Origin: Candidatus Rokuibacteriota bacterium
GTDB lineage: Bacteria; Methylomirabilota; Methylomirabilia; Rokubacteriales; CSP1-6
NCBI GenBank assembly: GCA_003221455.1
Contig: QHRX01000009.1
Coordinates: 10,031 to 74,030 of the forward strand
Direction: 5' to 3'
DNA length: 64,000 nt
Shown here: positions 695 to 39,552 of the stretch, in pieces
Position numbering within the stretch: the first letter of the stretch is position 1
How the letters are laid out: the number at the start of each line of letters is the position of its first letter
Program-made: the position numbers and the translations under genes
The notes under the pieces: model-generated
What the model was told of the DNA's origin: nothing
Database searches by the model: none
What the model saw: the letters and a program-made list of their open reading frames with translations, nothing else

Positions 695-1825
695 CTACCT
701 GAGTGTGTCGCGGAGCTCGCGGGTCAGCACCTCGACCGTCCCCCGCGTCCCGCCGGCGAGCTTCTGCTTCCACTCGCCCTCGGTCTCGAAACGGCGGTCG
801 CGCAGGCGCTCGCCCCACGGCTTGATGGTCTCGCGGATCGCGTGGAGCTCGAACGGGTCGCGCCGGAGCTCCCGGGCGCGGGCCATGATGTCGGGCGCGA
901 CCCGGATGAACGCCCGGAGCGCCGCCCCCGTCTTGATGGAGTACTTCCGGCCCGCCCACGCGTTCGGGAAGACGCCGGCCAGGGCCTTGACGTAGTTCAA
1001 GAAGAAGCGCTTCGCGCCCTGGCGCAGTTCCTGGATGCGCGCGGCGCCGCCGACCTTCTCCACGGTCTCCAGGAGCTCGACGATCTCCTCGGCGAGCGGC
1101 GCCTGGCTCACCCGGCCGCGGCCCGTGCCGAGCATCTTGATCTCGCCGTGGAGCGGCGACGTCTCGTCCTCGTTGAGCGAGCGGATCACGTCGTGGGCGA
1201 GGGCCTGGTTCGGGTCGGGGTAGAGCTTGCGACCGGCCAGGCTGATGATGTGCGACGGGTTGAGGCGCGTGTGCTTGGCGTTGATGGTGACGAAGAGCTC
1301 GACGATCTGCCGGGCGTCGAGGGTGTCGAAGAGCACGGCCGGCACCTCGATGCCGAAGGTCTCGCCCGACTGGGAGAGGGCGTGAAGCGCGAGCAGGCGG
1401 TGCTGGCCGTCGAGGACGCGGAGCACGCCCTGCTCCTCGGGGATCTGCAGGAGCCCGAGGTCGTGGTGGCTCGCCAGCGGCGTGAACGTGAAGCGCTTCT
1501 CGGACGTGATGATGACAGCGCCGGGGATCGCCGGGAGCGTGGCCGCCTCCTTGCACTCCCGGTAGTAGGCCACGAGCTCGTCGATCTTCCGTCGGATCAC
1601 CGGCCGCTGGTACGCGATCTCGCTCTCGCTGATGCGCTTCTCCAGAACCTCCCAGTTCACGCGCCCGCGGTTGCCGCGGGCGGGCTTGGTGGTGACCTTG
1701 GGGGCCCCCCCCGTGTAGCCGAGCACCTCGAACTTCACGAGCCGATCGATGTCCTTGGCCGAGAACGAGGCCTGGTAGAACTCGACGCCGAACTGCTTCA
1801 CGCGGTGGGCGTGGACGGTGATCAT
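695..1825 (-). CDS. DGQHR-domain protein (DndB/DpdB-like, ParB-like nuclease superfamily)
   Basis: Contains the exact DGQHR motif (VLDGQHRLLAL). Its 376 aa length is typical of DndB. No dndACDE, dptFGH or dpd partner genes are visible in the window. Confidence 0.75.
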   Translation of the reverse strand: MITVHAHRVKQFGVEFYQASFSAKDIDRLVKFEVLGYTGGAPKVTTKPARGNRGRVNWEVLEKRISESEIAYQRPVIRRKIDELVAYYRECKEAATLPAIPGAVIITSEKRFTFTPLASHHDLGLLQIPEEQGVLRVLDGQHRLLALHALSQSGETFGIEVPAVLFDTLDARQIVELFVTINAKHTRLNPSHIISLAGRKLYPDPNQALAHDVIRSLNEDETSPLHGEIKMLGTGRGRVSQAPLAEEIVELLETVEKVGGAARIQELRQGAKRFFLNYVKALAGVFPNAWAGRKYSIKTGAALRAFIRVAPDIMARARELRRDPFELHAIRETIKPWGERLRDRRFETEGEWKQKLAGGTRGTVEVLTRELRDTLR

Positions 1826-4943: not shown

Positions 4944-5087
4944 CCTGCCCGGGCATGTCACGATGCCCGTCCCGCGATGTCCCGCCGACACACCTTTTTT
5001 GACGCCCGGACCGGGCTCCGCTCGGCAGATCAATGGGTTACGACACAGGTACGATGTTTGCTCTAAGAGCGTCGCGGAGGAACGGGG

Positions 5088-5690
5088 ATGAGCCACGGCT
5101 TCCGGTCCACCCTTCTCGTCTCGGCGCTCCTGACGGCGCTCACTCTCGCGGCGCCACCCGGATCCGCGGCCCGGCCCGCGGGCGACCCTCCTCCCGCAAC
5201 CGGCGAGCTCGACGCGCTCGACGGGCTCGCCGCCGCGCTCCGGAGCGATCTGCACCTCGAGCAGCAGCGGCTCGACTCAGCGTGCGAGTTCACGGAGATT
5301 CGCGCGCGCCTGATCAGGGTGCGGGACGAGGCGGTCGCGGCCGCCGAGCGGCTGGGGAGCCTCTGGCGCGGCGGCCGCCTCCGCGCCCGTGGCCTCGCGA
5401 TGTCGGAGGTGCTCGTCTACGACTTCGCCGCGCTCATCTACGAGGCCCGGCGCGACACGGCACTCGCCGACACGCTGGCGACGCTCGAGGAAGAGACGCG
5501 CCAGGGGTCGGCCGAGGCGCGCGCCCTCTTCCGGCGCATGGTCGAGATCCATCCGGCGGCGCCGGCCTGTCTGAGCGGGACGCCCGACGAGCCCGAGCGG
5601 GGCGACCTCGCCGCGGTCCGCGCGCTCAAGCGGGCGCTCTCGATCGACTCCGTGCCTGATAGCGTCCTGGTGATCCGCGGGCTCAGATGA
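5088..5690 (+). CDS. hypothetical secreted protein
   Basis: Signal-peptide-like N-terminus (LLVSALLTALTLAAPPGSAA). GGAGG RBS about 9 nt upstream. No recognisable domain. Lies between the lyase and the convergent CoA-transferase. Confidence 0.4.
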   Translation: MSHGFRSTLLVSALLTALTLAAPPGSAARPAGDPPPATGELDALDGLAAALRSDLHLEQQRLDSACEFTEIRARLIRVRDEAVAAAERLGSLWRGGRLRARGLAMSEVLVYDFAALIYEARRDTALADTLATLEEETRQGSAEARALFRRMVEIHPAAPACLSGTPDEPERGDLAAVRALKRALSIDSVPDSVLVIRGLR

Positions 5691-6885
5691 CGCGCTCGGC
5701 GCGGAGCCGCCCGATCGCCGCGGCGTCGTAGCCGAGCTCGCCGAGCACCTCGTCCGTGTGCTGGCCGAGGGTCGGCGCCGGCCGCCGAATGCGGGCGGGT
5801 GTGTCGGAGAGCTTGATCGGGATCCCGAGCACCCGCGTCCGCCCCGCCACCGGATGGTCAACCGGCACCGCCATCTCGCGATGCGCCACCTGGGGGTCGG
5901 CGAAGACCTGATCGTAGGTGAGGATCGGCCCCGCCGGAACGCCCTCCGCCTCGAAGCGGTCGAGCCAGGTCGCCGTGGTCTCCTTCTCAAAGCGCGGCTG
6001 GAGCAGTGCCTCCAGCTCCTTCCGGTGCCGGACGCGGTCGCCCGGCGTCCGGAACCGGGGGTCGTCGACGAGCTCTGGGACGCCGAGCAGCGCGCAGATC
6101 TTCGGCCAGAAGCCCGGCGAGCCGCCGCCGAGGTTGATCCAGGAGTCCTTCGTCCGGAAGGCCTGGTAGGGCGCGCTCGCACGGTGGCCGGGCCCCAGGC
6201 GCTCCGGGACCTCGCCCGTCGCGAAGTAGGAGGAGGCCTCGTAGATCGACCACGCGATCGGCGTCTCCAGCAGCGACGTGTCGACGTGCTGACCCCGGCC
6301 GGTGCGCGACCGCGCGGCGAGGGCGGCCAGGATGCCGATCGTGGCGAACATGCCGGTGCCAATGTCGGCGATCGGGATCGGCAGCGGCAGGGGGGGGCCG
6401 TCTAGATCGCCGCTGATCGACATGAACCCTGACATGCCCTGGGCGATCCGGTCGAAGCCGCCGCGCTCCCGATAGGGACCGGTCTGGCCGAATCCCGAGA
6501 TCGAGCAGTAGATGACGCGCGGGTTGATCGCGCGCACGTGGTCGTAGCCGAGCCCGAGGCGGGCCGTCGCGCCCGGGCGGAAGTTCTCCAGGACGACGTC
6601 GACCCGGGCCGCCAGCGCGAGCGCGATCGTCCGGCCGGCCGCCGCCTTCAGGTCGAGCGTGACGCTCCGCTTGTTGCGGTTGTAGGTCATGAAGGCCGCG
6701 CTCTCGCCGCTGATCTTCGGGGAGACCGCGCGCGCGTCGTCGCCGACGCCCGGCCGCTCGAGCTTGATCACGTCGGCGCCGAGGTCGCCGAGCAGCATGG
6801 CGCAGTAGGGCCCGGAGAGCTGGGAGGTGAGGTCCAGGACGCGCAGGCCGTCGAGGGCGAGGCTGCCGGTCGTCATCGGCGACAC
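5683..6885 (-). CDS. family III CoA-transferase (CaiB/BaiF-like)
   Basis: N-terminal LRVLDLTSQLSGPYCAMLLGDLGADVIKLE and overall CaiB/BaiF fold signature. The conserved Asp region is present. Confidence 0.85.
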   Translation of the reverse strand: MSPMTTGSLALDGLRVLDLTSQLSGPYCAMLLGDLGADVIKLERPGVGDDARAVSPKISGESAAFMTYNRNKRSVTLDLKAAAGRTIALALAARVDVVLENFRPGATARLGLGYDHVRAINPRVIYCSISGFGQTGPYRERGGFDRIAQGMSGFMSISGDLDGPPLPLPIPIADIGTGMFATIGILAALAARSRTGRGQHVDTSLLETPIAWSIYEASSYFATGEVPERLGPGHRASAPYQAFRTKDSWINLGGGSPGFWPKICALLGVPELVDDPRFRTPGDRVRHRKELEALLQPRFEKETTATWLDRFEAEGVPAGPILTYDQVFADPQVAHREMAVPVDHPVAGRTRVLGIPIKLSDTPARIRRPAPTLGQHTDEVLGELGYDAAAIGRLRAERVI

Positions 6886-7175: not shown

Positions 7176-7206
7176 TGGGGCCCATTTGCGCCGGCACACA
7201 TCACGC

Positions 7207-8658
7207 ATGAGGGCCGGGACGTCCGCGGCTCAGGGCCTCCTGGCGGCGGCGCTCGCGGTGGTCGCCTTCCGCCTCGCCTGGTCGTCGCGAACCTGGCCGC
7301 TGATCCACGACGCCCCCCTCATGCACTACATCGCCTGGCGCATCCAGCACGGCGCCGTCCCGTACCGCGACCTATTCGACATGAACGCGCCCGGCCCCTA
7401 CCTGATCCACCTGCTCGTGCTGCGGACGCTCGGCGGGGGCGACCTGGCCTGGCGGATCTTCGACCTCGGCTGGCTGGCGCTCACCTGCTGGGTGGTGGCG
7501 CTCTACGCGTGGCCGGTCGGCGTCGGCCCCGCGGCGGTCGCCGCCGCGCTCGTCGCCCTCTACCATCTCGCGGGTGGCGTGTGGCTCGCCGGCCAGCGCG
7601 ACTTCCTCCTCTGCGCGTTCCTGATCGGAGGGGCGCAGCTGGTGGCGTCGCCGGCCACCTGGTGGCGCCTGATCCTGGCGGGGGTCGTCGGCGGGGCAGG
7701 GGTCACGCTGAAGCCCCCCGCCCTGATCTTCTTGATCGTGCTCGCGCTGGTGGCGGCCGTCGCGGCGGCGCGCGAGGGCCGGGTCTGGTGGACGCCACCC
7801 CTCGCCGTCCTGGCCGGTGGCGCCGCGGCGCCGCTCGGGTGCCTCGCCTGGCTCGCCTGGACCGGCGGGCTCCGGGCCTTCGTCGAGATCTTCGTCGAGT
7901 ACGACCTCCCGGTCTACTCGCGGCTGGCGCGCGTTTGGCCGTGGACCGCGCTCGGCTGGTGGCCGTTCGGCTGGCGCGTCTGGGCTCTCTTCGCCGTGCT
8001 CGTCCTGGCCGCCGGCGCCACTCGGCGCTGGGACACGCGGCGGGCGCTCGTGCTCGCGGGCCTGGCCTATGGCGTCGTGCACTTCCTGGCGCAGGGCAAG
8101 GGCTGGGAGTACCAGGTCTATCCGCTGGCCACGTTCGCTTGCCTCGGCGCCGGCTTCGCCATGGCGGCCCCCGCCCGCGCGGTGCGGGGGACGGCGCTCC
8201 TGGCCTCCGCGCTCCTCGGCCTCCAGCTCTACGTCAAAGGCGTTCAGGAACTCCGGCCGGCGTGGATCACGGCGAAAGCCCAGCGCGTGGACCGCATCGT
8301 GGCCGACCTGCGGGGTCGCGTCGGGCCGGAGGACACAGTCCAGGTGCTCGACACGGGCGAGGGGGGCGTCCACGCGCTCCTCAGGCTCGGCGTGCGCCAG
8401 CCGACGCGCTTCATCTACGACTTCCCGGTCTTCCACGACGAGGACCGGCCGGTCGTCCGGCGCCTCCGCGCCGAGTTCCTGCGCGAGCTCGAGGCCGCGC
8501 CGCCAAAGTTCATCGTGGTCCTCGAGCGCGGCTGGCCGTCGGGGGACTACGCGCGGATCGCCTGCTTCCCCGCGCTGGCCACCTGGATCGCGGCCACCTA
8601 TCGCCTCGACCGGGAGGGCCCCGAATACCGGGTCTATGCGAAGCGAGCAGATCTTTAG
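7207..8658 (+). CDS. GT-C fold membrane glycosyltransferase (ArnT/PMT/DUF2029-like), polytopic
   Basis: About 11 predicted TM helices. N-terminal periplasmic-loop motif (YRDLFDMNAPGPYL) typical of dolichyl/undecaprenyl-phosphate-sugar-dependent transferases. The ORF finder used an upstream TTG at 7186. Confidence 0.5.
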   Translation: MRAGTSAAQGLLAAALAVVAFRLAWSSRTWPLIHDAPLMHYIAWRIQHGAVPYRDLFDMNAPGPYLIHLLVLRTLGGGDLAWRIFDLGWLALTCWVVALYAWPVGVGPAAVAAALVALYHLAGGVWLAGQRDFLLCAFLIGGAQLVASPATWWRLILAGVVGGAGVTLKPPALIFLIVLALVAAVAAAREGRVWWTPPLAVLAGGAAAPLGCLAWLAWTGGLRAFVEIFVEYDLPVYSRLARVWPWTALGWWPFGWRVWALFAVLVLAAGATRRWDTRRALVLAGLAYGVVHFLAQGKGWEYQVYPLATFACLGAGFAMAAPARAVRGTALLASALLGLQLYVKGVQELRPAWITAKAQRVDRIVADLRGRVGPEDTVQVLDTGEGGVHALLRLGVRQPTRFIYDFPVFHDEDRPVVRRLRAEFLRELEAAPPKFIVVLERGWPSGDYARIACFPALATWIAATYRLDREGPEYRVYAKRADL

Positions 8659-12318: not shown

Positions 12319-13161
12319 GTGACGCGGAACGTGGTGACGGTCGAGGGCGGTGTGCGCATCCACTACCGGCGCCTGGGCGCGGGGCCCGGCATGGTGCTGC
12401 TCCACGGCTTTCCCCAGACCGGCCACATGTGGCGAAAGGTGATGCCGGCGCTCGCCGAGCGCTTCACCGTCCTCGCTCCCGACCTGCGCGGCTACGGCGA
12501 TTCCGACCGCCCGCCCGGCGGCTACGACAAGCGCCGGATGGCGGCCGACCTCGCGCAGGTGATCGAGGCGCTCGGCCTGACGCCGGTCGTCTTCGTCGGC
12601 CATGACCGTGGCGCGCGCGTCGGACATCGCTTCGCGCTCGACCACCCGGCGCTCCTCACGCGCCTCGTGCTCCTCGATATCGCCCCCACGTTCGACGTCT
12701 TCGACCGCCTCGACCAGGCGAGTGCGCGGCGGGTCTGGCACTGGTTCTTCCACCTGGTCCCGGACCTCCCCGAAGCCCTCACGGCCGGACGTGAGGAGGT
12801 CTACCTGCGCTGGTGCTACCGGACCTGGAGCCACAACCCGGCGGCGATCGAGGAGGAGGCGGTCCAGGAATACCTGCGCTGCTTCCGTCAGCCCGGCGCG
12901 ATGCGCGCGGCCTTCGAGGACTATCGGGCGGGCGGGACGGTGGATCTCGAGCAGGACGTCGCCGACCGCCACCGAAAGGTCACCGTGCCGACCCTCGTGC
13001 TCTGGGGCGCCAGCCGCACCGCGCAGAGCACCGACATGCTGGCCGTCTGGAGGGCGCGCTGCGAGCGTGTGGAGGGGCGCGCCGTCCCCGAGTGCGGCCA
13101 CTTCATCCCGGAAGAGCGGCCGGCCGCCGTGATCGACGCGGTGCTCGGCTTTGCGGGCTAG
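12319..13161 (+). CDS. alpha/beta hydrolase (epoxide hydrolase/haloalkane dehalogenase-like)
   Basis: HGFPQTGHMWR and the nucleophile elbow region (VFVGHDRGARV). GTG start. Confidence 0.8.
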   Translation: MTRNVVTVEGGVRIHYRRLGAGPGMVLLHGFPQTGHMWRKVMPALAERFTVLAPDLRGYGDSDRPPGGYDKRRMAADLAQVIEALGLTPVVFVGHDRGARVGHRFALDHPALLTRLVLLDIAPTFDVFDRLDQASARRVWHWFFHLVPDLPEALTAGREEVYLRWCYRTWSHNPAAIEEEAVQEYLRCFRQPGAMRAAFEDYRAGGTVDLEQDVADRHRKVTVPTLVLWGASRTAQSTDMLAVWRARCERVEGRAVPECGHFIPEERPAAVIDAVLGFAG

Positions 13162-13502
13162 TTCCCGGCGAGCTTCGAGAAGAAGCTCTTCACGCTGTGG
13201 CCGAGGCCGGCGGCGCCCGCCTTGAAGTTGGCCCACGCGCCCTTGGCCGGGGGCTCGGCCGCCTTTCCCGATTCCTTGAGCTTCTCGCCCGTGAACTTGC
13301 TGCCCTCGACGATCGTGTGACCGATCCCTTTCGCCGTCTCCTCAATGCCCGGGCCGATCTTGCCGGTACCGATCTTGTGCGCGCCCTCGTCGACCTGCTT
13401 GGTCGCGGCCTTCACCTTCGACGCGTCGGCGGCGGCGGCGGGCGTCGCGGTGACGACCAGCGCCCCGAGCAGGGCCGTGCAGACAACCGCGGATCGTGGC
13501 AT
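13158..13502 (-). CDS. small secreted Lys/Gly-rich protein, hypothetical
   Basis: Signal peptide with AxA site (VVTATPAAAADA). Non-Arg-rich composition unlike the spurious ORFs. 114 aa. Confidence 0.45.
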   Translation of the reverse strand: MPRSAVVCTALLGALVVTATPAAAADASKVKAATKQVDEGAHKIGTGKIGPGIEETAKGIGHTIVEGSKFTGEKLKESGKAAEPPAKGAWANFKAGAAGLGHSVKSFFSKLAGN

Positions 13503-13526
13503 GGCAATCCTCCAACACGATCTATC

Positions 13527-13910
13527 TTACCGCGGGCCGTCCCCAGCCCGCGCCGAGCCGGCCACCAGTTTAGAGGGCGATCGTGGGGCCGACGCTGGCT
13601 GGCTCGGATCAGACGGCAGGTTGAGGCTCATCGAGGGGCCGACGAGGAGCAGCCCGTTATTGGGAGGCGGGTCTCCCACTCCGTCCTGGCTCGCGATCTC
13701 GAACGTCGGAGCGGCGGAGTTCGTGTCAAGGGCTCCGACGACGAAATTGGGCGTACAGGTCGTCGGAATGGGGTTCCCGTTGGCGTCCAGGACGGGCGCC
13801 CCCGTGCTCGGGTCGGTCTGGTATGTGCGCACCGGGTTGGTCTGCTGTCCGGCCACGGGGAGCGAGGCGAGCCGCGCGACGAGCGGCAGGACTGAGAGGA
13901 TTTTCTTCAT
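13527..13910 (-). CDS. small secreted Pro/Thr/Ser-rich protein, hypothetical
   Basis: Lys-rich signal peptide (MKKILSVLPLVARLASLPVAG). 127 aa. Same strand as, and immediately downstream of, the PilZ receptor gene. Confidence 0.45.
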   Translation of the reverse strand: MKKILSVLPLVARLASLPVAGQQTNPVRTYQTDPSTGAPVLDANGNPIPTTCTPNFVVGALDTNSAAPTFEIASQDGVGDPPPNNGLLLVGPSMSLNLPSDPSQPASAPRSPSKLVAGSARAGDGPR

Positions 13911-13944
13911 TCACCCCTCGAGCGAGCGGCGGTCACGTTTTACC

Positions 13945-15552
13945 TTAGGCGGCTCCCCGTCGCCGGTCGCCGACGACGCGGGCGAGGAGGCCCCTCGCCC
14001 CCCCCTCGTGCGCGATCGCGGCGCGCGGCAGCTCTTCTTCGACCGAGAGCCCGATCGTCCGATCGCCGACGTGCCGGAGCTCTCCGACGCGGATCACCCC
14101 ACTCTTCATCCCCGGGAGGAGGACCTCGACCCGGTAGCAGCCCCCGAGCTCGAGCAGGTCGGCCCGCGCGGGGCCCGCGACGACGACGCGCATCCCCTTG
14201 AGGCTCGCGTCCACCGCACGGCCGACCGCCGCCCCGCCTGCGTGGAGCCACACGCGGACGGGCCAGGAAACCGGATCGCGGGGATTCCGTCGGCGTTCTC
14301 CGGCCCGCGGTCGCTCGGGATGCGGCGCGGGCGTCCCCCGCGCCGGCCCGGCGGACTGCCGGGGGGTCTCGACGGCCTCGGGTACGCCCTCGGACGGGAA
14401 GCCGTTCCTGGCCGGCGCCAAGGCCACGCCGGCCGCCCCCGCGGCGAGCGGGCCGGGCGCTCCGCCGAGGCCTCCCACGTGACGCGGGATAATGCGGTTT
14501 CCGATCACGCGCGCCGCCGCCAGGGCCAGCGCGGCGATGAGCCCGAGCCCCAGGAGGGTCGGGGCGAGCGCCGCGTCGGGCGCGGCCAGCGCCGCCTCGC
14601 GGGGAATGGCGACGGCTAGATAGGCGCCTTCGCTTCCGTCCGTGCTGGGCAGGGGAGTGAAGCCGACGAACCGATCGATGCCGTCGGGTCCGGCGGTCTC
14701 GGCCGAGCCCTCGCCCAGAGCCACCATCCGGTCGACGACGGCCGGGCCCCAGGCGACGGGTCCGACCCATTTGGCGGGATCGGGGAAGCGGACCCGGACG
14801 CGGCCCTGGCGGTCGCTGATCGTGACCGTCGAGCCCTCGGGTAACCGGGCGAGCGCGGCGAGCCGCGCGAGCCCCGTCAGGTCGACCGCCGCGAAGACGG
14901 CCCCCTGCACGGTCCCCGCGTCGTCGCCGAGGGGGTAGCTGACGTTGACCGTGGTCCGGCCTGTCACGCGGTCGACCCGGTACTCGCCGACCTCGAAGCC
15001 GCTGTTCTCCAGGGCGCGCCAGAAGTGGGCGCGTCCGCCGAGCTCGATCGGCTCTCCCGGCGGCGCCGCGCTGCAGAAGACGCTCCCGTTCAGCGTGACG
15101 GCGCCGAGGTTAGCGTAGCGCGAGTACCGCCGCAGAAGATCGCCGACGAGCGCGTTGCACCGGTCGGGCCGCTGCTGCCGAACGTCGGGGAGCTGGGCGA
15201 GCATCGTCAGGAGCTGCCGCGCCATCTCGATCGACCGTTCGTGCTCGGCGGCGAGGGCGCGCGCCCAGCGCACCGTGTCCTCCTGGGCGAGCGAGGCGGC
15301 GTGGCGGCGCTGCGCCAGAGTCGTCCGGAGCAGCAGTCCGGCCGTGGGGACGAAGCCGACCAGGAGCAGCAGCACGAGGTGGACGTGAAGCCGGGACAGG
15401 TAGGACCGCCGCACGAAGTCCGCCCGACTGCGGCGCCGGGCGGGCTGGGAGCCGGTCTCGCCCGACGGCAAGGTCGCGCTGACCCACGCGCCGTTCGTCG
15501 GGGCGGGCGGGGGAGAGGTGTGCTGCGGAGCTGACTCGGTGACCGCCGGCAT
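13945..15552 (-). CDS. transmembrane receptor: periplasmic sensor domain (Cache/CHASE-like) + C-terminal PilZ domain (putative c-di-GMP effector)
   Basis: Two TM helices flank a periplasmic domain of about 260 aa. A Gly/Ala/Pro-rich linker follows. The C-terminus has PilZ-like RxxxR (RRRNPR) and DxSxxG (DASLKGM) motifs. AAGGAGG RBS 7 nt upstream of the ATG at 15552. The ORF finder started at an upstream GTG. Confidence 0.5.
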   Translation of the reverse strand: MPAVTESAPQHTSPPPAPTNGAWVSATLPSGETGSQPARRRSRADFVRRSYLSRLHVHLVLLLLVGFVPTAGLLLRTTLAQRRHAASLAQEDTVRWARALAAEHERSIEMARQLLTMLAQLPDVRQQRPDRCNALVGDLLRRYSRYANLGAVTLNGSVFCSAAPPGEPIELGGRAHFWRALENSGFEVGEYRVDRVTGRTTVNVSYPLGDDAGTVQGAVFAAVDLTGLARLAALARLPEGSTVTISDRQGRVRVRFPDPAKWVGPVAWGPAVVDRMVALGEGSAETAGPDGIDRFVGFTPLPSTDGSEGAYLAVAIPREAALAAPDAALAPTLLGLGLIAALALAAARVIGNRIIPRHVGGLGGAPGPLAAGAAGVALAPARNGFPSEGVPEAVETPRQSAGPARGTPAPHPERPRAGERRRNPRDPVSWPVRVWLHAGGAAVGRAVDASLKGMRVVVAGPARADLLELGGCYRVEVLLPGMKSGVIRVGELRHVGDRTIGLSVEEELPRAAIAHEGGARGLLARVVGDRRRGAA

Positions 15553-15757
15553 GGTCGACCTCCTTCGCCGGTAGATCACCGCCCGTTGGGGCGGACAACT
15601 AGGGGCCTGAACCCCTGAAGCGGCGCCCGTATACTTCTACGCGGTTGGGCCGGCCAAGTCAAGCCGCGGTCGCGACCCGAATCGGACCCGGAGGATCCAT
15701 TACGGCCCGGGCGGCCTCCGTTGGTTCGGCTGAAGCCGGGAATGATATCCTCTGCGC

Positions 15758-16546
15758 GTGACCTACCGGCACCTTCTCGTCGCGCGCTCCGCCGACGGTC
15801 ACGTCGTCACGGTGACGATCGACCGGCCCGAGCGGCGGAACGCGCTGAACACGGCGCTCGGCGAAGACCTGCTCGCCTGCTTCGAGAGGCTGGCGCGCGA
15901 TGCCGACGCACGCGTCGTGGTGCTGACCGGCGCGGGCGACAAGGCGTTCTGCGCGGGGGCCGATCTGAAGGAGCGCGATGGCATGACCGACGAGGCGTGG
16001 CGCGCCCAGCACGTGGTCTTCGAGCAGGCCGCCCTCCGGATCCTCCGCTGCCCGATCCCGGTGATCGCCGCGGTGGAGGGCGCGGCCCTCGGCGGCGGCT
16101 GCGAGCTGGCGCTCCTCGCCGACTTCATCGTCGCCGGCGCCACCGCGGTGTTCGGCCTGCCGGAGACGACGCTCGGAATCTTCCCCGGCATCGGCGGCAC
16201 CCAGCTCCTGCCGCGCATGGTGGGCGCCCCCCTGGCGAAGGAGCTGATCTTTACCGGCCGCCGGCTTGCGGCGGACGCGGCGCGGGAGGCGGGCCTCGTC
16301 AACCACGTGGTCGCCGCGGGCCAGGCCCGGGCGACCGCGACGGAGATCGCCGCGACGATCGCGGGCAACGGCCCGATCGCCGTCCGCCAGGCGAAGAAGG
16401 CGATCGCGTACGGCACCGAGACCGACCTCGAGACCGCCATGGTCCTGGCGATCGAGGCCTACAACGCGACCGTCGTGACCGAGGACCGGCTCGAGGGCGT
16501 GCGCGCGTTCAACGAGAAGCGACCCCCCCGCTTCACCGGACGATGA
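15758..16546 (+). CDS. enoyl-CoA hydratase/isomerase (crotonase family)
   Basis: Crotonase signature (AFCAGADLKE) and GGGCELAL oxyanion region. Confidence 0.85.
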   Translation: MTYRHLLVARSADGHVVTVTIDRPERRNALNTALGEDLLACFERLARDADARVVVLTGAGDKAFCAGADLKERDGMTDEAWRAQHVVFEQAALRILRCPIPVIAAVEGAALGGGCELALLADFIVAGATAVFGLPETTLGIFPGIGGTQLLPRMVGAPLAKELIFTGRRLAADAAREAGLVNHVVAAGQARATATEIAATIAGNGPIAVRQAKKAIAYGTETDLETAMVLAIEAYNATVVTEDRLEGVRAFNEKRPPRFTGR

Positions 16547-17784: not shown

Positions 17785-19068
17785 CTACCGGGTGCGCCGG
17801 GCGCGGTGGAGCCAGAAGTGCTCGGCGCGCATCTCGAGCCGCGCGGCGAGGAGCCGCGTCCCCCGCTCGAGGTCGCCGGCGCGGAAGCACGCCTCGAGCA
17901 GGGTGTCGTGGAAGACGTCCCGCTGCGCGCGGCTCCCACCGAGCTCGACGATCCGCGGCGAGAGCGACTCGATCCGCTCGATCACCCGCGCATAGTCGCC
18001 GCCCGCGAACGCGTGGAGCCCCTCGATGAGCGGGATGGCCACGCCCGCGACGAGGTCAGAGCGATCCTTGGCGGCGCGCTCCCGGAGGAGGCCGAGCTGC
18101 TCGCCCGCGGTCGCCCAGTCCCCCGCCATCGCGAGCGCCATCGCGAGGTGTGCCGCGTGGTAGAGGAGGCCCGGGCGCCTCACGCGCTCGCGGGCGATCG
18201 CCGCGAACGGCGCCCAGGCGCCGCCCTGCGGGCGGCCGTAGAGCTCGAAGCGCCAGAGGAGCGAGATCGAGTCGTGCAGGTCGCCCGCGATCGACGAGGG
18301 CGCCAGCTCGAATACCTCGCGCGCGAGCGCGCGGGCCCGGTCGTAGCCGCCGCAGGCGAGGTGCATCAGAGCGAGGTGCCACAGCAGGTGGTCGCGAAAC
18401 CAGCCGAGCTGGACGCAGGGCTCAACCCGGGCCGGGAGCGCGGCGAGCCCCTCCTCGCTCCGGCCCGTCTCGTAGAGCGCGTGCGCGAACGCGTGCACGG
18501 CCCACGCGTCCCGGGCGTCCCGCGCGAGGGCGGCCTCGGCGGCGCGGAGGGCCTCGGCGCGCCGGCCTCCTTCCTCGAGGGCAAACGCGTGGAGGCCGAG
18601 CATGAACGAATCGTCCGCGTTCGCGGCCGCCAGGTCCCCGGTGAGGGCCAGCAGCTCCGCGAAGCGCCCCTGCCAGAAGAGGATGAAGTAGAGCCGCTGG
18701 AGGATCACGAGGTCGCGCGGGTAGGCCGCGAGGTGCGCGCGCATCGCCGCCTCGGCCTCCGTCGTCTTGCCGCCGGTGAGCAGCGCGACCGCCTCCACGT
18801 GGCCGCGCTCGCGCGCCGACTGGGCCTCGGCGGCCAGACGCGCGCCCGCCGCCTCGGCGCGCGCCTCCTGGAACCGCTCGTCGAGGAACAAGCAGACGGC
18901 CGCCCCGGCGCGGGCCAGCGCGAGCCGCTCGTCGCGCGCGGCGGCGGCGCGGAAGCGCTCGAGCGCGCCCGCGTCCCACGCGAGCAACCCACGCGCGCCG
19001 AGGTCGTAGAGATCGAGCGCCCCGCGGTCGGTCGTCGTGACGCCGAGTCCGCGCCCGTCAGCCAGCAT
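17785..19068 (-). CDS. TPR-like helical repeat protein (TTC38-family-like)
   Basis: All-helical repeat composition along the full length. Start placed at an internal Met (MLADGRGLG). No catalytic motif. Confidence 0.45.
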   Translation of the reverse strand: MLADGRGLGVTTTDRGALDLYDLGARGLLAWDAGALERFRAAAARDERLALARAGAAVCLFLDERFQEARAEAAGARLAAEAQSARERGHVEAVALLTGGKTTEAEAAMRAHLAAYPRDLVILQRLYFILFWQGRFAELLALTGDLAAANADDSFMLGLHAFALEEGGRRAEALRAAEAALARDARDAWAVHAFAHALYETGRSEEGLAALPARVEPCVQLGWFRDHLLWHLALMHLACGGYDRARALAREVFELAPSSIAGDLHDSISLLWRFELYGRPQGGAWAPFAAIARERVRRPGLLYHAAHLAMALAMAGDWATAGEQLGLLRERAAKDRSDLVAGVAIPLIEGLHAFAGGDYARVIERIESLSPRIVELGGSRAQRDVFHDTLLEACFRAGDLERGTRLLAARLEMRAEHFWLHRARRTR

Positions 19069-19133
19069 CCGGGGCAGGATACTACAGCGCGGGGACGGGC
19101 CGCGCGAGCCCGCCCCGCGGGGGCGGACCCGGC

Positions 19134-19613
19134 CTACGTCGCAGAGAGGAAGGACCGGAGCATCCACGCCATCTTCTCGTGGCGCTCCAGCAGCCCGGTC
19201 AGGAAGTCGCTCGTGCCGACGTCATGGTGCCGATCGACCGCGACGGCGAGGTCGTCGCGGAGCTGGCGGATGACCGCCTCGTGGTCGGCGAGCAGGTCCG
19301 CCACCATGCCCGTCGCGTCGGGGATCGTGCCAGGTTGCTCCTTGAGCCGCGCGTGATGCGTGAACTCGGCAAGCGTGCCCCGGGCCCGGCCGCCCAGCGT
19401 CCGCGCCCGCTCGGCGACGTCGTCGACGACGCCGTCCAGCTCCTCGTACTGCGCCTCGAAGAACGTGTGCAGGTCGTTGAACTGCGGGCCGGTCACGTTC
19501 CAGTGGTAGTTCCGCGTCTTGGTGTAGAGCAGGTACTCGTCTGAGAGCACGTCGTTCAGGATCGTCACAACGGACGCGCGAGGCGCATCCGGGATACCGA
19601 TGTTGGGTGCCAT
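19134..19613 (-). CDS. dps: Dps family DNA-protection/ferritin-like protein
   Basis: Dps ferroxidase-site pattern (YHWNVTGPQFNDLHTFFEAQYEE). 159 aa. Confidence 0.8.
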   Translation of the reverse strand: MAPNIGIPDAPRASVVTILNDVLSDEYLLYTKTRNYHWNVTGPQFNDLHTFFEAQYEELDGVVDDVAERARTLGGRARGTLAEFTHHARLKEQPGTIPDATGMVADLLADHEAVIRQLRDDLAVAVDRHHDVGTSDFLTGLLERHEKMAWMLRSFLSAT

Positions 19614-38041: not shown

Positions 38042-38310
38042 CGGCGACGCCCGTCGCGGGGCCGCGCCGCCTCCCCGGATTGAGCCGGGGCGTCCCGGAA
38101 GCCGCGAGGCGGCTCCGGGGACTCGCGTCAGCCTCCCGACGTCCGAATGTCTTCGCCCGATCCGACGCCTCCCTGGAAGTCCTCGAAAACGAACCGCTGT
38201 GTGTGGGGTCGACGGCTGGTACGGGGGCTGCAGCCGCCTTGGATGCCCCGGGACATTTTGACGCTCGGCGCGCCTGGGAGGTCGTTCCCTCTCCGCTGAA
38301 GGAGGTCGGG

Positions 38311-39552
38311 ATGGTTGAGCAGCTCGTCCGGGCGGTTCCGGAACGGTGGCGGGAGATCGCGGGGGTGGTGGCCGCTCCCGTCATCTGGATTCCGCCGATG
38401 CAGCGAGCCATCGCGCAGTTCTTCCTCGAGTCCCCGTCGCTGTGGATCGCCGCCGTGAAATACGTGCTCCTCCTCTTCCCGGCGGCCCTCTGGGTCGTCG
38501 CGGTCTGGTGCACGCAAGGCGCGCTCTACACGCTGCCCTTTCGCGGCCGGCGCCAGGCCTTCGTCTCCACCATGCTGCTCATGTGGTGGGACGCCGTGCG
38601 CGCCGCGTGGCTCTACTGGATGGGGGTCCTCCGTCTCGCCGTGGTGCTCGTGGGGTGGAGCGCCATGTTCGTCAGCCTCGGCATGAAGCTGATGGCACGG
38701 GGGGCGGTCCGGCTGGCCGGGCTGCCCGTCACGGCGAGCAAACGGCTGGCGAAGCACCATTCCCGGCCCGGGGTGCCCTGGATCGCCGTCCTCATGTTCA
38801 GGTTCTGGTGCTTCGTGGAGGCCACGGTGTTCACCTGGGTCCTGTTCCCGACGGTGTCCACGGTGGTGGCGAAGTTCGTCGGTCCCGCCCACGCGCGGGC
38901 CTACACGGCGCCCGTCCTCTACGTCTTCCTGCTCCTCCTCGTCAGGGGAAGCTTCGCCAGCCTGCGGGCGCTCGCCGACGCCGTCAAGACGCACGAGCGC
39001 GAATGGCTGGCCCAGATCGTCGTGGTCGGGCTGTCCGTGATGGTGTTCGAGGTGTTGGTCCTCTACCGGGAGCTGGTGCACGTCCTGGCGTCCTGGATCG
39101 CCGCCCGGACGGGCGGGAGGTACGAGCTCGGCGCGTGGCTCACCGTGGCCATCCCGCTGGCGGGCTGGATCAGCGTCCGCAGCATGACGTGGTTCTTGTT
39201 CGCGCAATTCGGGACGCCGGCGCTGCCCGCCCATCTCGGGCGCCGGCCGGCGATCGAGCCGAACGGCCGGCCGATCACGGTGCCGCCGACGTCGGGCGGC
39301 GGCGGGTGGCGGGCAGAGCTGGACGAGCTCGGGCGGGGGATGGGCTGGCTGCACGAGAAGAGCGACGAACTGCTCGAATATTTGGCGCTCCCCGTCCTCA
39401 CGGTCCTGGCCGTCGCCCTCAATTTCGGCATGGTCCTCGTGACGTCGCGGCCCGCCTTCAGCGTCCCCTTCAAGGGTCTGAAGGCCGTGCCGGACACGGG
39501 GGACATTCTCGCGGCGATGGCCCCGCCACCGAGGAAGGGCGTCAGCGCGTGA
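38311..39552 (+). CDS. polytopic Trp-rich integral membrane protein, uncharacterised
   Basis: Strong GAAGGAGG RBS 5-8 nt upstream of the ATG at 38311. About 8 predicted TM helices. No recognisable family. Confidence 0.55.
   Translation: MVEQLVRAVPERWREIAGVVAAPVIWIPPMQRAIAQFFLESPSLWIAAVKYVLLLFPAALWVVAVWCTQGALYTLPFRGRRQAFVSTMLLMWWDAVRAAWLYWMGVLRLAVVLVGWSAMFVSLGMKLMARGAVRLAGLPVTASKRLAKHHSRPGVPWIAVLMFRFWCFVEATVFTWVLFPTVSTVVAKFVGPAHARAYTAPVLYVFLLLLVRGSFASLRALADAVKTHEREWLAQIVVVGLSVMVFEVLVLYRELVHVLASWIAARTGGRYELGAWLTVAIPLAGWISVRSMTWFLFAQFGTPALPAHLGRRPAIEPNGRPITVPPTSGGGGWRAELDELGRGMGWLHEKSDELLEYLALPVLTVLAVALNFGMVLVTSRPAFSVPFKGLKAVPDTGDILAAMAPPPRKGVSA

What the first reader, a model, noticed from the sequence alone, without database searches (positions are those of the whole stretch)
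13158..15552. PilZ-domain transmembrane receptor with periplasmic sensor, followed by two small secreted proteins on the same strand
A 535-aa protein has an N-terminal cytoplasmic tail, two TM helices bracketing a periplasmic domain of about 260 aa, a low-complexity linker, and a C-terminal PilZ-like domain (RxxxR and DxSxxG motifs). Coupling c-di-GMP binding to an extracytoplasmic sensor is uncommon. Two small signal-peptide proteins (127 and 114 aa) follow immediately, one of them Lys/Gly-rich. They could be its secreted or periplasmic partners or ligands.
Basis: partly seen in the sequence, partly recalled or inferred. Interest (0 to 1): 0.5.

Follow-up and report, generated by a model that had tools for sequence, protein, structure and literature searches.

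The report
Cache sensor fused to PilZ domain
A rare membrane protein of uncultured soil Rokubacteria joins an outward-facing Cache sensor to an inward-facing PilZ (c-di-GMP-binding) domain through a decayed HAMP linker, while the two small genes after it are unrelated neighbours, not partners.

Summary
The three minus-strand ORFs exist as described. [quoted passage not shown] PilZ scores below the Pfam cutoff (17-19 vs 22.5 bits). It is nevertheless established by relatives found with a family profile (49 of the 53 sequences aligned match PilZ), by a confident AlphaFold model (pLDDT 86.7) whose top 43 PDB matches are all PilZ domains, and by intact RxxxR (R421-R425) and DxSxxG (D448-G453) motifs. 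Cache and PilZ are under purifying selection; the linker is near neutral and is a recognisable remnant of the HAMP domain of the closest relatives, Cache-HAMP histidine kinases. The family is rare (about 13 clusters, none in 185,579 species-representative genomes). The partner idea fails. The 114-aa secreted Lys/Gly-rich protein belongs to a large Rokubacteria-wide family (at least 481 clusters). None of 80 genomic loci has such a receptor nearby, and syntenic loci exist without the receptor. The 127-aa ORF is strain-specific, and is deleted, frameshifted or replaced in close relatives. Verdict: a real, modestly novel domain architecture, with function unproven and ordinary neighbours.

The parts
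13945..15552 (-). Cache-PilZ membrane receptor gene (535 aa; stop codon at 13945-13947)
   Evidence: ORF and RBS AAGGAGG at 15559-15565; GC3 0.90; 13 homologous clusters, six of them with the full architecture
15391..15552 (-). N-terminal cytoplasmic tail, residues 1-54: a variable Pro/Ser-rich part followed by a basic juxtamembrane stretch
   Evidence: Composition; dN/dS 0.6-2.4; absent from the related kinases
15328..15384 (-). TM1, residues 57-75
   Evidence: KD 2.39 over a 19-mer; dN/dS 0-0.2
14563..15321 (-). Extracytoplasmic dCache_1 sensor domain, residues 78-330 (Pfam match 98-255 = 14788-15261), with invariant C132 and C160
   Evidence: PF02743 52.5 bits vs cutoff 45; many invariant columns in A1; dN/dS 0.24-0.40; 44% identical to the Cache domains of Methylomirabilota histidine kinases
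14500..14556 (-). TM2, residues 333-351
   Evidence: KD 2.16
14299..14496 (-). Ala/Pro/Gly-rich linker, residues 353-418; its first ~35 residues are a decayed remnant of HAMP helix 1 and connector
   Evidence: Aligns to HAMP residues ~308-336 of kinase P0017, whose Pfam HAMP is 310-358; G+P 13-17 per 50 aa vs 4-12 in the kinases; no Pfam HAMP hit; dN/dS 0.7-0.9 and indels
14008..14298 (-). PilZ domain, residues 419-515; RxxxR at 14278-14292 (R421-R425), DxSxxG at 14194-14211 (D448-G453)
   Evidence: Pfam PilZ 17.4-19.2 bits (below the 22.5 cutoff) over model positions 1-87 of 102; 49 of the 53 sequences in alignment A4 (the window C-terminus plus 52 profile hits) match PilZ, best E 5e-12; top PDB sequence hits are PilZ proteins; AF2 pLDDT 86.7 with six strands plus a helix; the top 43 Foldseek PDB hits are all PilZ; dN/dS 0.27-0.50
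13527..13910 (-). ORF127: a strain-variable small ORF, probably a real but decaying secreted-protein gene, not part of a conserved module; poly-C tract at 13857-13860
   Evidence: Only 3 clusters in 5.8e9 proteins; absent from or only a remnant in relatives at 64-88% identity; +1 C frameshift in L012, L013 and L014; internal deletion in L022; core pN/pS 0.46; GC3 0.82
13158..13502 (-). ORF114: small secreted Lys/Gly-rich helical protein of a large uncharacterised Rokuibacteriota/Methylomirabilota family; an independent gene
   Evidence: At least 481 clusters and no Pfam family; at least 80 species-representative genomes, 0 of 80 with a receptor nearby; L020, L021 and L023 have it next to ECH without the receptor; dN/dS 0.2-0.7; AF2 all-helical at low confidence
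13508..13529 (-). Conserved TAAGATAGA (13521-13529) plus GGAGGA (13508-13513) upstream of ORF114: a candidate own promoter -10 element and RBS
   Evidence: Invariant columns in A3 across relatives with and without ORF127; retained in L007, where an opposite-strand methyltransferase gene separates ORF114 from the receptor. Promoter function is inferred; the consensus scan found none

Best explanation
The 535-aa gene encodes an orphan, membrane-anchored c-di-GMP receptor. It arose from a Cache-HAMP sensor histidine kinase of the same phylum, whose kinase transmitter was replaced by a PilZ domain. Shown: an extracytoplasmic dCache_1 domain between two TM helices; a cytoplasmic PilZ fold with intact RxxxR and DxSxxG motifs; purifying selection on both domains; and a linker that is a degraded HAMP remnant evolving almost neutrally. 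Inferred: the Cache domain binds an unknown small extracellular or periplasmic ligand. The PilZ domain binds c-di-GMP. Because the connecting HAMP has decayed into a flexible Gly/Pro-rich tether, the two domains are probably not coupled by the usual helical transmembrane relay. PilZ then most likely works as a membrane-tethered adaptor, as stand-alone PilZ proteins do: at high c-di-GMP it recruits or regulates an unidentified partner at the site of the sensor. The protein would thereby integrate an outside cue (through localisation or oligomerisation) with the cell's c-di-GMP level. The two downstream small ORFs are not part of this system. ORF114 is an independent member of a phylum-wide family of small secreted proteins and has its own upstream signals. 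ORF127 is a strain-specific gene in a variable intergenic hot-spot.
For: Architecture. PilZ identity: every one of the six family C-termini has PilZ as its best Pfam family; the profile search of 1.84e9 representatives gave 138 hits, mostly 90-150-aa proteins, and 49 of the 53 sequences aligned match Pfam PilZ, down to E 5e-12; the profile's top PDB sequence hits are 8u0i (PilZ), MotI/YpfA, YcgR and BcsA, with RxxxR and DxSxxG in register; the AF2 model has pLDDT 86.7; Foldseek ranks 1-43 are all PilZ structures, many bound to c-di-GMP. Selection: dN/dS is 0.24-0.40 for Cache and 0.27-0.50 for PilZ, against 0.7-0.9 for the linker and 0.6-2.4 for the tails. Kinase origin and HAMP decay: 44% identity to kinase P0017 from TM1 to about 30 residues past TM2, HAMP at 310-358 in P0017, and the aligned vestige with raised Gly/Pro content. 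No other output domain. Independence of the small ORFs. No signalling genes among the 20 larger window ORFs scanned.
Against: The window protein's own PilZ score is below Pfam's curated cutoff. c-di-GMP binding is not demonstrated. No partner and no ligand are identified. The tethered-adaptor mechanism is an inference from the decayed HAMP, not an observation. The family evolves much faster than its neighbours (87% vs 97-98% identity against L004). A sister subgroup has lost DxSxxG and half the PilZ barrel, and one paralog lacks the tail altogether. The C-terminal module is therefore dispensable in some lineages, which fits weak or lineage-specific function.
Confidence: 0.6

Rival explanations
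1. Inside-out c-di-GMP receptor (LapD-like logic): c-di-GMP binding to the cytoplasmic PilZ changes the state of the periplasmic Cache domain, which then captures or releases a periplasmic protein or ligand. The Cache domain would be the output rather than the input.
For: There is no cytoplasmic output domain. The Cache-TM core is the most conserved part, and it persists in lineages that lost PilZ. LapD sets the precedent for c-di-GMP-driven inside-out signalling through a periplasmic PAS/Cache-like domain (PMC3032553, found).
Against: LapD needs an intact HAMP relay; here the HAMP is degraded to a Gly/Pro-rich, near-neutral linker with indels. No LapG-like protease or adhesin gene lies nearby. 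The adjacent secreted proteins are not co-distributed with the receptor.
Confidence: 0.12
2. Evolutionary relic: a former Cache-HAMP kinase that lost its transmitter and is drifting. The PilZ domain is a recent, weakly selected add-on, and the protein has little or no signalling function, or only a PilZ-independent one.
For: The protein evolves much faster than its flanking genes. The HAMP has decayed. PilZ is degenerate in the sister subgroup and absent in P0007. The family is rare and missing from all 185,579 species-representative genomes, and syntenic loci lack it.
Against: The reading frame is intact across lineages at 64-100% identity. dN/dS is clearly below the linker's value in both Cache and PilZ. 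All c-di-GMP-contact motifs and 58 of 126 PilZ-region alignment columns are invariant among the six clusters.
Confidence: 0.18
3. One reading: a three-gene module in which the two small secreted proteins are periplasmic partners or ligands of the Cache domain.
For: In the window the three ORFs are on the same strand with 34- and 24-nt gaps and no predicted terminator. ORF114 follows the receptor in most receptor-bearing contigs.
Against: ORF127 is absent, a remnant, frameshifted or internally deleted in close relatives. In L007 an opposite-strand methyltransferase gene separates the receptor from ORF114. ORF114 occurs without the receptor at the same syntenic position (L020, L021 and L023). 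Its homologs in 80 of 80 species-representative loci have no such receptor nearby. The distant receptor subgroup has no ORF114 neighbour. The whole metabolic neighbourhood is equally syntenic, so adjacency reflects shared ancestry among close relatives.
Confidence: 0.04

Closest known systems
PilZ-bearing chemoreceptors (Azospirillum brasilense Tlp1; Aer-PilZ)
   Same: [quoted passage not shown] It integrates an external cue with c-di-GMP (PMC6406031).
   Different: Tlp1 has a HAMP domain and an MCP signalling domain that feeds the chemotaxis pathway, and PilZ only tunes it. Here there is no MCP domain and no functional HAMP, so PilZ is the only cytoplasmic domain.
Stand-alone PilZ adaptors (PA0012/8u0i, MapZ, FlgZ, HapZ)
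   Same: These are the closest PilZ relatives by sequence and fold: single canonical PilZ barrels of 90-150 aa with RxxxR and DxSxxG. 8u0i aligns with TM 0.82 (normalised by target length) and rmsd 2.2 A. The likely mode of action, c-di-GMP-dependent binding of a partner, is inferred from them.
   Different: Those proteins are soluble. Here the domain is tethered to a Cache/TM module by a linker of about 65 residues.
Cache-HAMP-HisKA-HATPase sensor histidine kinases of Methylomirabilota/Rokubacteria (P0014-P0019)
   Same: 44-45% identity from TM1 through the dCache_1 domain, TM2 and the first HAMP helix, which makes them the evident evolutionary source of the sensor module.
   Different: The receptor has no HisKA or HATPase domain. 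Its HAMP is degraded, its C-terminus is replaced by PilZ, and it has an extra N-terminal tail of about 45 residues.
LapD (inside-out c-di-GMP receptor)
   Same: An inner-membrane protein with a periplasmic PAS/Cache-like domain and a cytoplasmic c-di-GMP-binding module, and no enzymatic output (PMC3032553).
   Different: LapD binds c-di-GMP through a degenerate EAL domain and relays the signal through an intact HAMP to capture the protease LapG. None of these components is present here.
Alg44 and BcsA (membrane PilZ proteins)
   Same: A PilZ domain on a membrane protein, structurally similar (4rt0, 4xrn, 4hg6 and 4p00 among the top hits).
   Different: Their PilZ domain regulates an attached polysaccharide synthase or secretion machine. 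There is no glycosyltransferase or HlyD-like domain here, and no exopolysaccharide genes adjacent to the receptor.

Membership tests
PilZ domain (PF07238) | Match to the family profile at or above the curated cutoff | tested here: inconclusive
   The window protein scores 17.4 bits (full length) and 19.2 bits (isolated domain) against a cutoff of 22.5, covering model positions 1-87 of 102. All six family members have PilZ as their best family, best E 4.9e-05. 49 of the 53 sequences aligned after the profile search match PilZ, best E 5e-12.
PilZ domain (PF07238) | Six-stranded beta-barrel followed by a C-terminal helix | tested here: met
   The AF2 model has pLDDT 86.7, strands E16-25, 31-39, 43-48, 62-67, 76-85 and 89-94, and a helix at 100-122. 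Foldseek PDB ranks 1-43 are all PilZ domains, E down to 4.7e-06.
PilZ domain (PF07238) | RxxxR motif in the N-terminal loop | tested here: met
   R421-R-N-P-R425. R421 and R425 are invariant in the 53-sequence alignment and in register with RQYPR of c-di-GMP-bound PA0012.
PilZ domain (PF07238) | D/NxSxxG motif | tested here: met
   D448-A-S450-L-K-G453 is invariant among the six full-architecture clusters and aligns with DLSDTG of 8u0i.
PilZ domain (PF07238) | Binds c-di-GMP | not testable with these tools
   This needs ITC, DRaCALA or MST on the purified domain.
dCache_1 (PF02743) | Profile match above the curated cutoff | tested here: met
   52.5 bits vs 45, residues 98-255. The related kinases score 54-60 bits.
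dCache_1 (PF02743) | Extracytoplasmic location between two TM helices | tested here: met
   TM1 57-75 and TM2 333-351 with basic residues on the cytoplasmic sides. Two invariant Cys residues (C132, C160) are compatible with a periplasmic disulfide, which is an inference.
dCache_1 (PF02743) | Defined ligand-binding pocket or ligand class | not tested
   No solved relative was found by sequence. No structure model of the periplasmic domain was made.
HAMP (PF00672) | Two amphipathic helices after TM2 that match the profile | tested here: not met
   There is no HAMP hit at E <= 1. Only a degraded vestige of helix 1 aligns to the kinases' HAMP, with high Gly/Pro content.
Two-component sensor histidine kinase | HisKA and HATPase_c domains | tested here: not met
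   None were detected. Similarity to the kinases ends about 30 residues after TM2.
PilZ-containing chemoreceptor (Tlp1 type) | MCP signalling domain between the sensor and PilZ | tested here: not met
   There is no MCPsignal match, and only 66 low-complexity residues lie between TM2 and PilZ.
LapD-type inside-out receptor | Degenerate GGDEF-EAL module, HAMP and LapG/LapA partners | tested here: not met
   None of these domains is in the protein, and no such genes are in the neighbourhood.

The most novel reading that the evidence does not exclude
The protein is a previously undescribed class of minimal transmembrane c-di-GMP receptor. PilZ occupancy would control the periplasmic Cache domain (inside-out, without HAMP), or would gate hetero-oligomerisation with the paralogous Cache histidine kinases. 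Either way, second-messenger level and an extracellular ligand would be read by one 535-aa polypeptide that has no enzymatic output.
Probability: 0.12. Interest if true: 0.6.

Novelty: new variant of a known kind. Interest (0 to 1): 0.3.

Why it matters
If the PilZ domain binds c-di-GMP, this is a compact example of an extracytoplasmic sensor wired directly to a second-messenger receptor with no kinase, cyclase or chemoreceptor module between them. It is also a natural case of a histidine kinase being converted by a domain swap, with the HAMP relay caught in decay. That bears on how signalling architectures are rewired, and on whether PilZ adaptors can be localised by sensor modules. The practical point is that standard annotation sees only 'Cache domain-containing protein', because PilZ falls below the Pfam cutoff. 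The significance is limited, however. The family is rare and confined to uncultured Rokubacteria, no partner or ligand is known, and the proposed secreted partners turn out to be unrelated.

Tried and rejected
1. A direct PDB sequence search with the six-member PilZ profile and with the full-length family profile found nothing. Only the deeper 53-sequence profile reached solved PilZ proteins.
2. I tested whether the divergent tail of the distant subgroup is a frameshifted PilZ. A six-frame HMM search found only the N-terminal half, in frame, so the tail is degenerate rather than frameshifted.
3. I tested whether the Cache-only paralog P0007 plus the next gene is a split Cache | PilZ-REC version of the fusion. 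The neighbour is REC-REC with no PilZ, so this idea is rejected.
4. Consensus promoter and terminator scans of 13000-15800 found nothing.
5. The tRNA and Rfam scans of the window found nothing.
6. ORF114 has no credible Pfam or PDB sequence match. Its AF2 model is low confidence (pLDDT 56.8), so no fold search was run on it.
7. The species-representative genome scan for the receptor returned no relative.
8. Literature searches for a described Cache-PilZ architecture found none. Neither the PilZ reviews nor a recent PilZ survey mentions it, and no paper on c-di-GMP signalling in Rokubacteria turned up. This is absence from the searchable library, not proof of novelty.
9. The TAAGATAGA element is conserved only among close relatives (8 of 65 loci), not across the family.
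Full report
**1. The observation**

The window is about 72% GC. Three consecutive minus-strand ORFs lie at the reported coordinates:
- 13945-15552: 535 aa from an ATG preceded by AAGGAGG. An upstream in-frame GTG would give 544 aa, but the homologs start at MPAVTES.
- 13527-13910: 127 aa.
- 13158-13502: 114 aa.

Third-position GC is 0.90 for the large gene and 0.92 for ORF114, like the flanking genes (0.92-0.96). For ORF127 it is only 0.82.

Hydropathy gives this layout for the large protein:
- an N-terminal tail, residues 1-54;
- TM1, residues 57-75;
- a 253-residue external segment, residues 78-330;
- TM2, residues 333-351;
- a 66-residue Ala/Pro/Gly-rich linker;
- a C-terminal domain of about 100 residues.

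The described anatomy is therefore real.

**2. The two domains**

The external segment is a dCache_1 domain above Pfam's curated threshold (52.5 bits against 45).

The C-terminal domain matches Pfam PilZ only weakly. It scores 17.4 bits in the full protein and 19.2 bits in isolation, against a cutoff of 22.5, although the match spans model positions 1-87 of 102. I therefore tested PilZ membership independently, in four ways.
- All six family members that share this C-terminus have PilZ as their best Pfam family.
- A profile of those six, searched against 1.84 billion representative proteins, found 138 proteins. Most are 90-150 aa and are matched from residue ~3, as expected of stand-alone PilZ proteins. 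I aligned 52 of them with the window C-terminus, and 49 of those 53 sequences match Pfam PilZ, down to E = 5e-12.
- A profile of that 53-sequence alignment hits solved PilZ proteins first: 8u0i (PA0012), MotI/YpfA, YcgR and BcsA. RxxxR and DxSxxG are in register with the c-di-GMP-bound PA0012.
- An AlphaFold model built on that alignment is confident (mean pLDDT 86.7). It shows six strands followed by a helix, and Foldseek ranks 1-43 against the PDB are all PilZ domains.

The motifs are R421-RNP-R425 and D448-A-S450-LK-G453. I conclude that the domain is a canonical PilZ domain. Whether it binds c-di-GMP remains untested.

**3. Family, selection and origin**

A search of 5.8 billion proteins found only about 13 clusters with the same sensor plus tail. 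They fall into three groups.
- Six clusters (64-100% identity) have the full Cache-PilZ architecture.
- A second subgroup (52-56% identity) keeps the Cache and TM parts almost unchanged but has a degenerate tail. Only the first half of PilZ is recognisable, DxSxxG is replaced (for example by RACFGG), and no other frame encodes the rest.
- One paralog (P0007) ends after TM2.

None of the 185,579 species-representative genomes encodes a relative.

Nei-Gojobori estimates against five orthologs show constraint on TM1 (0-0.2), Cache (0.24-0.40) and PilZ (0.27-0.50). The N-tail, the linker (0.7-0.9) and the C-tail are close to neutral.

The nearest proteins outside the family are Cache-HAMP-HisKA-HATPase kinases annotated as Methylomirabilota/Rokubacteria. 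Identity is 44% and runs from TM1 to about 30 residues past TM2, which is into the kinases' HAMP domain (residues 310-358 in P0017). An alignment shows a vestige of HAMP helix 1 in the receptor family: kinase R.V.AL..AT..LaaGdLsAR against RHVGGLGGAPGPLAAGA. The 50 residues after TM2 contain 13-17 Gly+Pro in the six PilZ-bearing clusters, against 4-12 in the kinases.

The protein is best read as a kinase whose transmitter was replaced by PilZ.

**4. The small ORFs**

*ORF114.* This gene follows the receptor in most receptor-bearing contigs (L001, L002, L004-L006, L013, L014), but the whole metabolic neighbourhood is equally syntenic there: ACAD and ECH on one side, alpha/beta-hydrolase, ADH and SDR on the other. 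Several results show that ORF114 is independent of the receptor.
- L007 has an opposite-strand methyltransferase gene between the receptor and ORF114.
- The distant receptor subgroup has no ORF114 neighbour.
- L020, L021 and L023 keep ECH directly next to ORF114 with no receptor at all. Their ECH, hydrolase and ADH are 81-84% identical to the window's.
- The ORF114 family is large, with at least 481 clusters and no Pfam domain.
- It occurs in at least 80 species-representative genomes, almost all Rokuibacteriota/Methylomirabilota.
- None of those 80 loci has a Cache or PilZ receptor, or an ORF127 homolog, within 3.5 kb.
- A TAAGATAGA element and a GGAGGA RBS upstream of ORF114 are conserved among the close relatives, including L007, which suggests the gene has its own expression signals.

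The protein has a signal peptide and a conserved Lys/Gly-rich mature part. That part is predicted, at low confidence, to form three amphipathic helices. Its function is unknown.

*ORF127.* This ORF has only three clusters in the database. The identical one is annotated as a hypothetical protein of a Candidatus Rokuibacteriota MAG. Its state varies among close relatives.
- Relatives at 85-87% receptor identity retain about 95 nt of its 5' end, with the ATG destroyed, and lack the next ~310 bp.
- Three contigs that encode the identical receptor carry a +1 C in a poly-C tract, which disconnects the signal peptide from the body.
- L022 has an internally deleted copy followed by unrelated DNA and a frameshifted ORF114.

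The conserved core shows mild purifying selection (pN/pS 0.46). ORF127 is therefore probably a real gene, but it is strain-variable and decaying, and it sits in an indel hot-spot.

**5. Mechanism**

*Shown:* the topology, the identity of both domains, motif retention, the domain-wise pattern of selection, the HAMP decay, and the absence of any other output domain. No signalling genes are found among the 20 larger window ORFs scanned.

*Inferred:* the Cache domain senses an external ligand and PilZ senses c-di-GMP. Because the tether is flexible and nearly neutral, the two domains are unlikely to communicate through a helical relay. PilZ then most likely acts as a membrane-tethered adaptor, like the soluble single-domain PilZ proteins that are its closest relatives.

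The module is essentially refuted by its distribution.

The receptor evolves much faster than its neighbours: 87% identity against 97-98% versus L004, and 65% against 85-89% versus L001. Some lineages have lost PilZ altogether. These two facts keep the relic hypothesis alive.

**6. Comparison with what is known, and novelty**

Coupling a periplasmic sensor to a C-terminal PilZ domain is known in chemoreceptors such as Tlp1 (PMC6406031). Membrane PilZ proteins such as Alg44 and BcsA, and the inside-out receptor LapD, are also known. The published lists of PilZ architectures that I could read mention REC, GGDEF, EAL, HD-GYP, MCP, CheC, HlyD and YcgR-type fusions, but not Cache alone. Other searches found no description either.

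I rate this as a new variant of a known kind: known domains in an unusual minimal arrangement, in a rare family of an uncultured phylum. Interest is moderate to low, because the function is unproven and the suggested partners are ordinary, unrelated neighbours.

Noticed in passing
window 13158-13502; loci L016-L102: ORF114 belongs to a large family of ~110-120-aa secreted Lys/Gly-rich proteins with no Pfam domain. The family has at least 481 clusters and occurs in at least 80 species-representative genomes, nearly all Rokuibacteriota/Methylomirabilota. Some MAGs carry two copies (for example two contigs each of OBJ1_062018_110_59 and MAG050). The core ...GKIGxGVEETAKGIGxTVVEGxKFTGEKLKESGKAAEP... 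is highly conserved. Function is unknown.
   Followed up: partly
window 13503-13944; L004/L005 5582-5714; L007 5609-7433; L022 672-1600: The gap between the receptor and ORF114 is an indel hot-spot among closely related strains. It holds ORF127 in the window, a 95-nt remnant in L004 and L005, an opposite-strand 326-aa methyltransferase in L007, and an internally deleted ORF127 plus ~490 bp of unrelated DNA and a frameshifted ORF114 in L022.
   Followed up: partly
window 13857-13860 (CCCC); L012, L013, L014: The length of a poly-C tract differs (4 C against 5 C) between the window and three independent metagenome contigs that encode the identical receptor. The extra C puts the ORF127 start codon and signal peptide out of frame with the body. 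This could be phase variation, pseudogenisation or a shared assembly error.
   Followed up: partly
P0008-P0013; loci L009-L011 (gene at 5001-6521): The sister subgroup of the receptor has lost the PilZ barrel but carries a conserved C-terminal Cys cluster, AC.C..CRAR.RG.R (for example GACACSACRARLRGRR). This may be a small metal-binding or basic tail rather than junk. A ~540-bp gap follows the gene, and the next gene encodes a zinc-ribbon (UPF0547) protein.
   Followed up: no
L015 3886-5810: A Cache+TM-only paralog (P0007, 383 aa, 68% identical over the sensor) is translationally coupled (TGATG overlap) to a 257-aa REC-REC double-receiver protein. A small HATPase_c_2 (anti-sigma-like) protein is encoded upstream. 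The same sensor module evidently pairs with different cytoplasmic signalling partners.
   Followed up: partly
P0188, P0177, P0199, P0187, P0198, P0226 (hits): The PilZ subfamily closest to the receptor's also occurs fused to GAF-adenylate/guanylate cyclase, PAS and receiver domains, on either side of PilZ. This points to a diversified c-di-GMP effector repertoire; the organisms were not identified.
   Followed up: no
window 13945-15552 and homologs P0001-P0010: The precomputed annotations list only PF02743 (or 'cache domain-containing protein' or 'hypothetical protein') for this family. The PilZ domain is missed by standard pipelines because it scores below the Pfam gathering threshold.
   Followed up: yes
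window 695-1825 (-): A 376-aa ORF matches DndB (DNA-sulfur modification-associated; PF14072, 54 bits) over its N-terminal half. It sits among metabolic genes, and no other dnd-like genes were looked for.
   Followed up: no
window 7186-8658 (+), 17785-19167 (-), 38080-39552 (+): Three long ORFs with good GC3 support (460-490 aa) have no Pfam match at E <= 1e-5. The gene at the position corresponding to 17785-19167 in relatives (426-427 aa, between the Dps/ferritin and ACAD genes) has only faint TPR hits.
   Followed up: no
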